A DNA stretch of 64,000 bases, from positions 1,559 through 65,558 of the forward strand of contig ONDR01000020.1 in NCBI GenBank assembly GCA_900316675.1, written 5' to 3'. The stretch's first letter is position 1. Each line of letters opens with the position of its first letter. Below, piece by piece: positions 20,312-20,428 of this stretch. The position numbers and the translations under genes were made by a program. The notes beneath the pieces were generated by a model. That model searched no databases, was not told the DNA's origin, and was given only the letters and a program-made list of their open reading frames with translations. Source of the stretch: an uncultured Bacteroidales bacterium (GTDB lineage: Bacteria > Bacteroidota > Bacteroidia > Bacteroidales > UBA932).

Positions 20312-20336
20312 CAATACCCTCATAAATAGGGTATTG
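20312..20336. promoter_or_regulatory. Perfect 9-bp hairpin between the leader RNA and the DUF3800 start (attenuator/terminator or operator)
   Basis: CAATACCCT-CATAAAT-AGGGTATTG; no strong U-tract on either strand. Confidence 0.5.
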
Positions 20337-20354
20337 ATTAAAGAAGGATGTGTT

Positions 20355-20428
20355 GTGAAGGGAGCGCCTTCCAGAATGGAACGGCCCTGCTCCTGGTTTC
20401 ATTACCGGCCGACTTCACGACCGTCTGC
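20355..20428 (-). ncRNA. Candidate pseudoknotted RNA in the DUF3800 leader
   Basis: P1 CGGUCG/CGGCCG with loop UGAAGU; P2 GGAGC/GCUCC enclosing GCC-G-UUCCA(UUC)UGGAA-GGC; loop UGAAG can pair with CUUCA immediately 3' of P2. Confidence 0.55.

What the first reader, a model, noticed from the sequence alone, without database searches (positions are those of the whole stretch)
20312..20428. Predicted pseudoknotted leader RNA that I cannot match to a known riboswitch or ribozyme
Minus strand: GCAGA-CGGUCG-UGAAGU-CGGCCG-GUAAUGAAACCA-GGAGC-AGG-GCC-G-UUCCA-UUC-UGGAA-GGC-GCUCC-CUUCAC. The P1 loop (UGAAG) pairs with the CUUCA lying directly 3' of P2, which would give a coaxially stacked pseudoknot with a purine-rich linker. 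It is GC-rich inside an AT-rich intergenic region, starts at the predicted TSS, and is followed by a perfect 9-bp hairpin before the DUF3800 ATG. It could be an antitoxin RNA, a riboswitch or attenuator, a self-cleaving RNA, or a host sRNA into whose 3' flank the DUF3800 gene was inserted.
Basis: partly seen in the sequence, partly recalled or inferred. Interest (0 to 1): 0.68.

Follow-up and report, generated by a model that had tools for sequence, protein, structure and literature searches.

The report
Shared leader of mobile defence-gene cassettes
The GC-rich patch is a real, strongly conserved 71-base two-hairpin element, but it does not belong to the DUF3800 gene: it is one copy of a repeat that sits just after the promoter of many different defence- or toxin-like gene cassettes in rumen Bacteroidales, and the proposed pseudoknot is not conserved.

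Summary
The core (window 20353-20423, minus strand) matches no Rfam family.

It is not a host RNA. Near-identical relatives without DUF3800 also lack it.

It is not part of the conserved DUF3800 + DUF3800-VIII module either. None of 80 DUF3800 loci carries it, and homology to them stops about 14 nt upstream of the ATG.

The same 71 nt (mean 91% identity, against about 60% in the flanks) recurs in other ruminant-gut contigs. Each copy lies 11-20 nt after a Bacteroidetes TAnnTTTG box and ahead of an unrelated gene: AbiD/Abi_2, LPD3-like, CdiA_C-like or DUF3800. Two contigs hold two and three copies in tandem cassette arrays. Single metagenomes hold 4-34 contigs with it.

Variation falls in the loops. 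A subfamily keeps the 5' 33 nt and the outer P2 stem but has a different inner helix. There is no base-pair covariation in the main family, and the pseudoknot shrinks from 6 bp to 3-4 bp in relatives.

Best reading: a portable promoter-proximal 5' leader ("cassette head") that probably acts in cis as RNA. A DNA recombination-site role is the main rival. The closest known analogue is the conserved intergenic motif of Bacteroidales rAID arrays. Function is untested.

The parts
20435..20442 (-). Bacteroidetes-type -7 promoter box TATTTTTG (TAnnTTTG), 11 nt upstream of the conserved block
   Evidence: Read. All 11 full copies, and most loose-end flanks, have a TAnnTTTG box 11-20 nt before the block, while the sequence in between is not conserved.
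20353..20423 (-). Conserved 71-nt 'cassette head' block: P1 (20406-20423), invariant linker GUAAUGAAAYCA (20394-20405), P2 three-part hairpin (20361-20393), invariant tail CUUCACAA (20353-20360)
   Evidence: CM R1 scores 100.9 bits here and finds no second copy in the window. Ten further copies in 7 loci score 90-102 bits. Mean pairwise identity is 0.91 in the block and 0.59/0.60 in the 70 nt on either side. There is no Rfam hit.
20312..20336 (-). Perfect 9-bp hairpin (CAAUACCCU/AGGGUAUUG) in the copy-specific part of the leader; weak terminator-like site
   Evidence: It is not conserved in other copies. Some have an unrelated CCGAU...AUCGG hairpin and some have none. No + strand terminator lies between block and ORF in L113, L114 or L097.
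19450..20277 (-). DUF3800 gene (275 aa), the cargo of this cassette; matches PADLOC candidate defence family PDC-M04A
   Evidence: Pfam PF12686, 23.9 bits. PADLOC PDLC04353, E = 2.7e-13. 275 relatives in GTDB genomes across many phyla.
19374..19439 (+). DUF3800-VIII RNA (Rfam RF03075), convergent with the DUF3800 gene, with its own TACCTTTG box at 19358-19365. This is the true conserved RNA partner of the gene.
   Evidence: 50.3 bits against a gathering score of 40.2. Found in the same position and orientation in 18 of the first 20 DUF3800 loci (all but L001 and L005). Box position.
19312..20456 (-). About 1.15-kb segment (head + DUF3800 + DUF3800-VIII) that is absent from near-identical relatives. 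It lies between the M64/LRR peptidase gene terminator and the tRNA-Leu promoter.
   Evidence: A contig in run X28 joins 19240 to 20460 with 57 nt in between. L082 has 244 other nt there, and L083 has a different left neighbour. Homology to other DUF3800 loci spans only about 19312/19335 to 20278/20291.

Best explanation
The element is one copy of a multi-copy, 71-nt, two-hairpin sequence. It forms the promoter-proximal 5' leader ('head') of small, horizontally shuffled gene cassettes in uncultured ruminant-gut Bacteroidales.

A cassette has three parts:
- a head: sometimes an upstream insulating terminator, then a TAnnTTTG promoter, then the block 11-20 nt later
- one cargo gene starting 37-100 nt after the block (DUF3800, AbiD/Abi_2, LPD3-like or CdiA_C-like)
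- often a convergent small-RNA gene at the 3' end; here that is DUF3800-VIII

In the window, one such cassette is inserted alone between the M64 peptidase gene and tRNA-Leu. The head has replaced the short native promoter that DUF3800 genes have elsewhere.

Inferred mechanism:
- The block is transcribed as the first ~80 nt of the cargo mRNA.
- P1 and P2 fold on the sense strand.
- The invariant single-stranded linker and the P2 internal loop form a recognition surface for a shared trans-acting factor.
- The result is common, cargo-independent control of potentially toxic genes, through RNA stability, processing or repression.

Shown: conservation, copy number, position relative to promoter and ORF, modularity, and loop-biased variation.
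Inferred: transcription start, RNA folding and the regulatory role.

The proposed P1-loop/3'-tail pseudoknot is not part of the conserved design.
For: (1) Eleven full copies in 8 contexts, scoring 90-102 bits with one CM. Single metagenomes hold 4-34 contigs with the block and diverse flanks.

(2) Block identity is 0.91, flanks 0.59/0.60, and random 70-mers 0.54. In L114, heads a and c are 97% identical in the block but 73% upstream.

(3) Every copy has a TAnnTTTG box 11-20 nt upstream and an ORF on the same strand downstream.

(4) There are tandem arrays. L113 has 2 copies and L114 has 3, each ahead of a different small gene, with terminators just 5' of each head promoter.

(5) The same genes occur without the block. 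None of 80 DUF3800 loci has it. Abi_2 genes at 77% identity or less lack it, and homology to them starts at the ATG.

(6) The block is co-absent with DUF3800 in near-identical strains.

(7) Variation sits in the loops, bulge and internal loop. The P1 loop is 6-7 nt and the P2 loop varies.

(8) Subfamily contigs keep the 5' 33 nt and the GGAGC/GYUCC outer stem but have different inner helices: UCUCU/AGAGA, CUUC/GAAG, GGCG..UUCC/GGGG..UGCC.

(9) P1 has an invariant U.G, plus C-to-U changes that pair only on the sense strand. The sense-strand MFE is lower than the antisense MFE in 9 of 11 copies.

(10) A conserved 71 nt lying entirely downstream of the promoter is longer than a typical operator.
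Against: - No compensatory base-pair change occurs in the 11 full copies. They are too similar for a test.
- Single-sided stem changes are split between those tolerated on the sense strand and those tolerated on the antisense strand.
- Fold z-scores of the core are modest, -0.8 to -2.65.
- There is no direct evidence of a transcript 5' end. Four of five true metatranscriptome runs have no block-bearing contig. The two contigs in X27 could be DNA carry-over, and one of them includes the -7 box.
- Nothing conserved downstream links the block to the start codons, so how it would control translation is unclear.
- The very sharp 3' edge (...CACAA[C]) between otherwise unrelated cassettes in one array would also fit a recombination junction.
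- The subfamily evidence comes from 30-nt contig ends, and some of these are consensus sequences.
Confidence: 0.5

Rival explanations
1. DNA-level recombination or capture site. The block, perhaps folded as single-stranded DNA, is the site at which a recombinase joins cassettes, as attC does in integrons or the conserved intergenic repeats are thought to do in rAID arrays. The promoter is simply carried along.
For: - The 3' edge is sharp and always at the same nucleotide. Heads L114a and L114b are 98% identical over 141 nt, and the identity stops at CACAAC ahead of unrelated genes.
- Loose ends in many contigs break at 20353.
- Arrays consist of co-oriented short genes with repeated intergenic sequence.
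- The whole promoter+leader is swapped up to the ATG on genes that elsewhere have their own promoter.
- The cassette in the window is an insertion next to a tRNA gene.
Against: - No recombinase gene lies next to any copy in the DNA available: the window, L097 (9 kb), L113 or L114. Most contigs are short, so this is weak.
- There are no integron core sites (RYYYAAC/GTTRRRY) at the ends.
- The block forms two separate hairpins rather than one long imperfect palindrome.
- In the window the head lies upstream of the gene inside the inserted unit. That is not the layout expected from a circular cassette that opened at the CACAAC edge.
- A constant promoter distance with a non-conserved spacer points to selection on the transcript.
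Confidence: 0.2
2. Self-cleaving or otherwise processed RNA. It would act as a ribozyme or an RNase processing signal that trims the 5' UTR to a standard end for every cassette.
For: - The size (about 70 nt), two helices with variable loops and invariant joining nucleotides are typical of small ribozymes.
- The repeated, cargo-independent position in 5' UTRs of mobile or defence genes also fits.
- Only the window copy has pseudoknot potential.
Against: - No match to any Rfam ribozyme family, even at E <= 10.
- The only candidate tertiary pairing is not conserved.
- No read-end evidence is available.
Confidence: 0.07
3. Double-stranded DNA operator. The P1 and P2 palindromes would be binding sites for a transcription factor that represses all cassettes, for example the WYL/HTH regulator encoded beside the L113 array.
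For: - The block contains two imperfect palindromes just downstream of the promoter.
- An HTH_11-WYL-WCX regulator gene lies directly upstream of the L113 array.
Against: - Loop length varies (6 or 7 nt in P1; the P2 inner helix is replaced in the subfamily), which would change half-site spacing.
- 71 conserved nt spanning about +8 to +80 is long for an operator.
- The single-stranded-looking linker, which is not palindromic, is the most invariant part.
- No such regulator lies near the other copies, including the window.
Confidence: 0.08
4. One reading: a DUF3800-specific pseudoknotted leader, acting as a cognate antitoxin RNA or riboswitch for the DUF3800 gene.
For: - In the window it is in the DUF3800 5' leader and is lost together with the gene.
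- 6-bp loop-to-tail complementarity is present in this copy.
Against: - None of 80 DUF3800 loci, including those at 88% and 79% protein identity, has it.
- The conserved RNA partner of the gene is DUF3800-VIII, on the other side.
- The same block precedes four unrelated gene families.
- The pseudoknot falls to 3-4 bp in 10 of 11 copies, with no compensating change.
Confidence: 0.03
5. Coding sequence: a small ORF or a gene fragment. All three plus-strand frames and two minus-strand frames are open across the block, and one minus-strand frame begins with an AUG (MKPGAG...).
For: - Gene callers have produced ORFs across it: P0001-P0003 and P0124-P0131.
- The X28/L084 copy is open in the plus frame over 64 codons.
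Against: - Among 5.8 billion proteins, only 3 ORFs share the peptides. They are in different frames or fused to unrelated genes.
- Substitutions in the AUG frame are almost all non-synonymous.
- L114c has AACGAAA, so it has no AUG.
- Indels of 1-2 nt occur in the P1 loop.
- The ORF tails have different lengths (17-75 aa).
Confidence: 0.02

Closest known systems
Conserved intergenic sequence motifs of Bacteroidales rAID-1 arrays (Ross et al. 2019, bioRxiv 10.1101/471110; PMC12247911)
   Same: - Order Bacteroidales.
- Arrays of co-oriented short genes (about 100-300 codons) of varied, conflict-related function, separated by repeated intergenic sequence (L113, L114).
- Signs of horizontal acquisition.
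   Different: - No XerD-like recombinase is seen next to any copy.
- The cargo here is AbiD, DUF3800, LPD3-like and CdiA_C-like, rather than T6SS immunity genes.
- The window holds a solo cassette.
- The rAID motif sequences are only in figures, so identity could not be tested.
- rAID was described in human-gut genera; these copies come from ruminant-gut metagenomes.
Integron attC sites (for example Vibrio VCRs)
   Same: - Repeats of about 60-140 nt that are about 90% conserved between otherwise unrelated cassettes in an array.
- Hairpin-forming, with sharp cassette boundaries.
   Different: - attC lies 3' of promoterless ORFs and forms one long imperfect hairpin with RYYYAAC/GTTRRRY cores, next to an IntI integrase.
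- This block lies 5' of each ORF just after its own promoter, forms two hairpins, and lacks the core sites and a visible integrase.
AbiF/Abi_2 upstream ncRNA (abiF motif RF03085; RCd22 of C. difficile, PMC12373285)
   Same: - A structured RNA between the promoter and an Abi_2-family toxin gene, co-transcribed with it.
- L096, L097 and L105 have the block 95-100 nt ahead of an AbiD/Abi_2 gene.
   Different: - No match to RF03085.
- No terminator between the block and the gene.
- The block also precedes unrelated proteins, so it cannot be a cognate protein-binding antitoxin.
- Abi_2 genes at 77% identity or less lack it.
DUF3800-associated RNA motifs I-XI (Weinberg et al. 2017, PMC5737381)
   Same: A non-coding structured candidate next to a DUF3800 gene. 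One of these motifs, DUF3800-VIII, really is present in the window at 19374-19439.
   Different: Those motifs co-occur with DUF3800 genes across taxa. The block does not (0 of 80 loci) and matches none of the Rfam models.

Membership tests
Any Rfam 15 family (riboswitches, ribozymes, Bacteroides sRNAs, abiF, DUF3800-I..XI) | Covariance-model match at or near the gathering score | tested here: not met
   No hit overlaps 20312-20428 at gathering score or at E <= 10. There is no hit on the block in L084, L095, L096, L097, L105 or in L113/L114.
DUF3800-associated RNA motif | Recurrent co-occurrence with DUF3800 genes in different genomes | tested here: not met
   None of 80 DUF3800 loci has it by blastn, nhmmer or CM. 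DUF3800-VIII is present in 18 of the first 20.
H-type pseudoknot as proposed (P1 loop with 3' tail) | The pairing is kept, ideally with compensating changes, in homologues | tested here: not met
   69% of cells are paired, and pairs 17-77 and 21-74 hold in 4/11 and 1/11 copies. The loop varies (UGAAGU, UGAAUU, UCGAAU, UCUGAAU, UCAGAAU) while CUUCAC is invariant. An alternative nested pairing, linker UGAA with UUCA, is 98% paired but invariant.
Conserved hairpins P1 and P2 (structured RNA in general) | Base-pair covariation | tested here: inconclusive
   There are 0 compensatory pairs in 11 copies at 91% identity. Helix-level replacement of the inner P2 stem, with the outer stem kept, is seen in subfamily contig ends. 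Variation is concentrated in loops.
rAID-1 / integron-like cassette array | [quoted passage not shown] | tested here: met
   L113 has 2 heads and L114 has 3 heads, ahead of genes of 132-169 aa, together with a repeated 3' 'tail'. The window itself has a single cassette.
rAID-1 / integron-like cassette array | Adjacent tyrosine recombinase (XerD-like or IntI) | tested here: inconclusive
   None lies within the DNA held around any copy. L114's neighbours are ICEA, a methylase and UvrD. L113's neighbour is a WYL regulator. The window's neighbours are the M64 peptidase, tRNA-Leu and AmiA-like genes. Arrays run off the contig ends.
rAID-1 | Sequence identity of the repeat with the published rAID intergenic motif; cargo = interbacterial immunity genes | not testable with these tools
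The cargo found here is AbiD, DUF3800 (PDC-M04A), LPD3-like and CdiA_C-like.
Integron attC | Inverse core RYYYAAC and core GTTRRRY at the two ends; position 3' of the ORF | tested here: not met
   Read from alignment A4. The ends are [C/U]GGUCG... and ...CUUCACAA(C); the reverse-complement end GTTGTGA does not fit GTTRRRY. The block is 5' of the ORFs.
AbiF-type RNA antitoxin / type III TA | ncRNA specific to one toxin family and followed by a terminator before the toxin gene (repeats in type III) | tested here: not met
   The block precedes four unrelated protein families. No terminator-like site lies between block and ORF in L097, L113 or L114. There are no tandem repeats within a leader.
Riboswitch | Aptamer coupled to a conserved expression platform, with a coherent metabolic or transport gene context | tested here: not met
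   Sequence after CACAA is unrelated between copies, and the ATG lies 37-100 nt away with or without a hairpin. The downstream genes are defence- or toxin-like. Ligand binding itself was not tested.

The most novel reading that the evidence does not exclude
The block is the signature element of an undescribed cassette system in Bacteroidales. In this reading it is either a combined capture site and expression head through which anti-phage or toxin genes (AbiD, DUF3800, nuclease-like domains) are collected into arrays and scattered as solo insertions, or a new class of small catalytic or regulatory RNA that gates all such cassettes. It would be paired with convergent 3' sRNA genes as a second common part.
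Probability: 0.2. Interest if true: 0.85.

Novelty: new variant of a known kind. Interest (0 to 1): 0.62.

Why it matters
If the block is a shared control or capture element, it gives a simple sequence tag for finding mobile defence/toxin cassettes in Bacteroidales metagenomes; a 71-nt covariance model already retrieves them. It would show how unrelated toxic genes are brought under one common regulatory head.

It could link rumen arrays to the poorly understood rAID or integron-like systems of gut Bacteroidales.

For annotation it has three consequences:
- It corrects a tempting mis-assignment: the RNA partner of DUF3800 is DUF3800-VIII, not this leader.
- It explains several spurious ORF calls in public protein sets.
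- It warns that single-sequence pseudoknot predictions can be copy-specific.

Tried and rejected
- **Plus-strand reading.** The 117 nt fold better on the + strand (z = -5.15). That fold relies on window-specific flanks. Promoter, ORF orientation, sense-only wobble pairs and per-copy MFEs favour the minus strand.
- **Pseudogene or small-ORF reading.** Peptide and six-frame concatenated searches gave only three ORF calls in 5.8 billion proteins. These hits nevertheless served as handles to fetch further copies.
- **uORF MKPGAG...** Substitutions are non-synonymous and one copy lacks the AUG.
- **Phage or plasmid origin.** Three IMG/VR pattern scans gave only chance or coding matches; L089/L090 share 21 nt. 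blastn against PLSDB and INPHARED found nothing.
- **More copies in the window or in DUF3800 loci.** None found by nhmmer or CM.
- **Head pairing with the 3' sRNA.** The window leader against DUF3800-VIII is not better than shuffles. One L114 head-tail pair was (p about 0.003), but through the non-conserved part of the leader.
- **Attenuator terminator after the block.** Only the window has a weak one.
- **attC cores, Xer/dif-like arms, hammerhead and HDV-like layouts.** Checked by eye against alignment A4; none fits.
- **RNA-run evidence.** Only assembled contigs were available. Four metatranscriptomes lack the block, and runs could not be searched with the L114 sequence.
- **Literature search for the sequence itself.** Nothing relevant.

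Full report
**What is in the window**

Read on the minus strand, the finding is exactly as described.
- A Bacteroidetes -7 box, TATTTTTG, lies at 20442-20435.
- After 11 nt comes P1, CGGUCG-UGAAGU-CGGCCG (20423-20406).
- Next is a 12-nt linker, GUAAUGAAACCA.
- P2 follows as a three-part hairpin: GGAGC-AGG-GCC-G-UUCCA-UUC-UGGAA-GGC-GCUCC (20393-20361).
- Then come CUUCACAA (to 20353), a perfect 9-bp hairpin (20336-20312), and the ATG of a 275-aa DUF3800 gene at 20277.

The patch has 56% GC, against 26-35% on either side. The 117 nt fold into P1, P2 and the 9-bp hairpin with z = -3.3.

On the plus strand lie a tRNA-Leu(GAG) gene (20527-20610) with its own TATCTTTG box, an AmiA-like gene and enolase. 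Rfam finds nothing on the candidate at gathering score or at E <= 10. It does find DUF3800-VIII RNA (RF03075, 50.3 bits) at 19374-19439 on the plus strand, convergent with the DUF3800 gene.

**Is it part of the DUF3800 module?**

A scan of one genome per GTDB species returned 275 relatives of the protein, and 80 loci were kept. They range from 88% identity in rumen Bacteroidales down to about 41-45% in many phyla.

In 18 of the first 20 loci (all but L001 and L005), DUF3800-VIII lies 20-90 nt beyond the stop codon on the opposite strand. DNA homology between the window and these loci runs from about 19312/19335 to 20278/20291. It covers the sRNA promoter, the sRNA and the gene, and stops at most 14 nt upstream of the ATG.

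None of the 80 loci has anything like the candidate, whether tested by blastn, nhmmer or a covariance model. The Bacteroidales relatives instead have a TAnnTTTG box about 30 nt before the ATG. The candidate is therefore not the conserved RNA partner of DUF3800. That partner is DUF3800-VIII.

**Is it a host RNA next to tRNA-Leu?**

The AmiA-like neighbour retrieved two near-identical loci (98-99% protein identity), L082 and L083.
- In L082 the M64 peptidase gene and its terminator hairpin are followed by 244 unrelated nt.
- In L083 the left neighbour is a different gene.
- In both, identity to the window starts at TTGCAAAAAAATCG (20457).
- A contig in run X28 joins 19240 to 20460 with 57 nt between.

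So about 19312-20456 is an inserted 1.15-kb unit. The candidate is lost together with DUF3800, and it is not a host sRNA.

**The candidate occurs elsewhere, in other contexts**

In the same read-laying, contigs from runs X27 and X28 matched only 20353-20412, inside unrelated sequence. All three plus-strand frames are open across the patch, so I tested a coding reading.

A 40-aa peptide built from the X28 flanks found one 64-aa ORF among 5.8 billion proteins. A six-frame concatenate found two more. A search of 1.84 billion representative proteins found seven short ORFs.

These are gene-caller artefacts. They lie in different frames, have no Pfam domain, and are fused to unrelated genes. They did, however, lead to the DNA.
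- L084/L085: the block precedes a CdiA_C-like gene.
- L095: an LPD3-like gene.
- L096: an Abi_2 gene.
- L097-L101 and L105: Abi_2 genes at 85% and 78% identity, AbiD in PADLOC.
- L113: two copies in one contig.
- L114: three copies in one contig.

A covariance model of the 71-nt core scores 90-102 bits on all copies and finds only the one copy in the window. Abi_2 genes at 77% identity or less (L103, L106, L108) lack the block. There, homology begins at the ATG, as with DUF3800.

DNA metagenomes of goat, cattle and sheep gut hold 4-34 contigs each that carry the block, mostly with unlike flanks.

**Anatomy of the family**

Every copy has a TAnnTTTG box 11-20 nt upstream of the block, and the sequence in between is not conserved. 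An ORF on the same strand starts 37-100 nt downstream.

Mean pairwise identity is 0.91 in the block and 0.59/0.60 in the 70 nt on either side. Random 70-mers give 0.54 with the same aligner.

In the L114 array each head is preceded by a terminator-like hairpin with a T-run (5552-5572, 7220-7239). Heads a and b are 98% identical over 141 nt, and that identity ends at CACAAC ahead of unrelated genes. Cassette genes in L113 and L114 are followed by a second repeat. It reads as a convergent sRNA gene of about 95 nt, with its own TAnnTTTG box and terminator, and has no Rfam match. This mirrors the DUF3800 / DUF3800-VIII arrangement in the window.

The L114 array lies beside an ICEA-type restriction-modification pair and a UvrD helicase. 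The L113 array lies beside an HTH-WYL-WCX regulator.

**Structure**

In 11 full copies, P1, the linker, the P2 stems and CCCUUCACAA are almost invariant. The positions that vary are:
- the P1 loop, 6 or 7 nt: UGAAGU, UGAAUU, UCGAAU, UCUGAAU, UCAGAAU
- the P2 loop
- the bulge
- one internal-loop position
- two linker positions

There are no compensatory changes, so covariation cannot support or refute the helices.

Its two outer pairs hold in only 4/11 and 1/11 copies, leaving a 3-4 bp GAA/UUC core. An alternative nested pairing, linker UGAA with UUCA, is 98% paired but invariant.

Three points favour a folded sense strand.
- P1 has an invariant U.G, and three copies have a further C-to-U change that pairs only on this strand.
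- The sense-strand MFE is lower than the antisense MFE in 9 of 11 copies, although z-scores are modest.
- A subfamily seen only as contig ends keeps the 5' 33 nt (CGUGAAGUCGGCCGGUAAUGAAACCAGGAGCAG) and the GGAGC/GYUCC outer stem but carries different inner helices. RNAfold still closes these with the outer stem.

No terminator lies between block and ORF in L097, L113 or L114, so the block is part of the mRNA leader rather than a separate sRNA.

**Expression**

Only assembled contigs were available. One metatranscriptome (X27) has two block-bearing contigs, and one of them includes the -7 box. Four others have none. Transcription is therefore inferred from the promoter, not shown.

**Interpretation**

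The data establish with high confidence that the candidate is a member of a repeated, selectively maintained element. It forms the promoter-proximal head of modular cassettes that carry defence- or toxin-like genes. In the window it heads a solo DUF3800 + DUF3800-VIII cassette inserted next to tRNA-Leu.

How it works is inferred. I favour a cis-acting RNA leader shared by all cassettes (confidence 0.5), for these reasons:
- the constant promoter distance with a free spacer
- the length and position of the conserved stretch
- tolerance of changes in loop length
- the strand-specific wobble pairs
- the replaced inner helix in the subfamily

The main rival (0.2) is a DNA recombination or capture site. 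It is supported by the razor-sharp 3' edge and the array architecture.

**Comparison with known systems**

The closest description in the literature is the 'conserved intergenic sequence motifs' of Bacteroidales rAID-1 arrays. Those arrays combine a tyrosine recombinase with co-oriented short genes. The array architecture matches. A recombinase was not seen, the cargo differs, and the motif sequence could not be compared.

AbiF systems have an upstream RNA antitoxin, the abiF motif. The block does not match that model and is not specific to Abi_2 genes. It is not an integron attC, because it lies on the 5' side of the ORFs and lacks the core sites. It is not one of the DUF3800 motifs of Weinberg et al..

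I rate it a new variant of a known kind, namely the repeat or leader of gene-cassette arrays. There is a modest chance that it marks something mechanistically new.

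Noticed in passing
window 19374-19439 (+), promoter box 19358-19365: DUF3800-VIII RNA (RF03075) is convergent with the DUF3800 gene and has its own TACCTTTG box and a 3' GGGGCUUUUUUU. It holds the same position and orientation in 18 of the first 20 DUF3800 loci, across phyla. That fits a gene-plus-antisense-sRNA module such as a type I-like toxin-antitoxin pair or a guide/partner RNA.
   Followed up: partly
L114 6165-6262 and 8030-8127 (RNA sense on - strand); L113 ~3762-3880 (-); L102 ~75-195 (+): A second repeated non-coding element lies 3' of cassette genes. 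It is a convergent sRNA-like gene of about 95 nt (GGAUUCGUCGAAGGGGAAUUCGCGUAAGGGAUGACAACC...UUGAUCCGAGCCCC) with its own TAnnTTTG box and a terminator. It has no Rfam match and is a candidate new sRNA family.
   Followed up: partly
window 19241-20460 versus L082, L083 and an X28 contig: The region just upstream of the tRNA-Leu promoter is a rearrangement hot spot. Three near-identical strains have three different left-hand neighbours, and identity always resumes at TTGCAAAAAAATCG (20457).
   Followed up: yes
L011, L017, L018, L020 (DUF3800 loci): Several DUF3800 + DUF3800-VIII modules in other genomes lie close to tRNA or tmRNA genes. L017 has a tRNA 11 nt from the sRNA, and L011 has a tmRNA about 180 nt away. 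This suggests the modules are often inserted beside such genes.
   Followed up: no
P0001-P0003, P0124-P0131 (public protein sets): Gene callers have predicted ORFs straight through the block. Some extend real genes at the N-terminus: P0003 is an Abi_2 protein with 77 spurious residues, and P0002 is an LPD3-like protein with 95. These are annotation artefacts caused by a stop-free, GC-rich non-coding element.
   Followed up: yes
window 23883-23974 (-): ARAGORN calls a 92-nt tRNA-Ile(GAU) inside the ATP synthase beta-subunit ORF (23020-24531, +). Rfam does not report a tRNA there, so it is probably a false positive.
   Followed up: partly
L113 1770-2681 (+): An HTH_11-WYL-WCX regulator (BrxR/CapW-like; PADLOC WYL E = 4.8e-16) lies directly upstream of the two-cassette array. 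It could be the array's regulator.
   Followed up: no
L114 head 1 (5617-5772) versus tail 1 (6165-6262): RNAduplex gives a head-tail interaction stronger than shuffles (-61.9 against -46.3 +/- 5.0 kcal/mol, p about 0.003). It runs mainly through the CCGAU...AUCGG hairpin region of the leader, not the conserved block. The window leader against DUF3800-VIII shows nothing comparable.
   Followed up: partly
L106 1726-1823 (+): A SAM-I/IV riboswitch (61.6 bits) lies in an unrelated part of an Abi_2 locus. It has no bearing on the finding.
   Followed up: no
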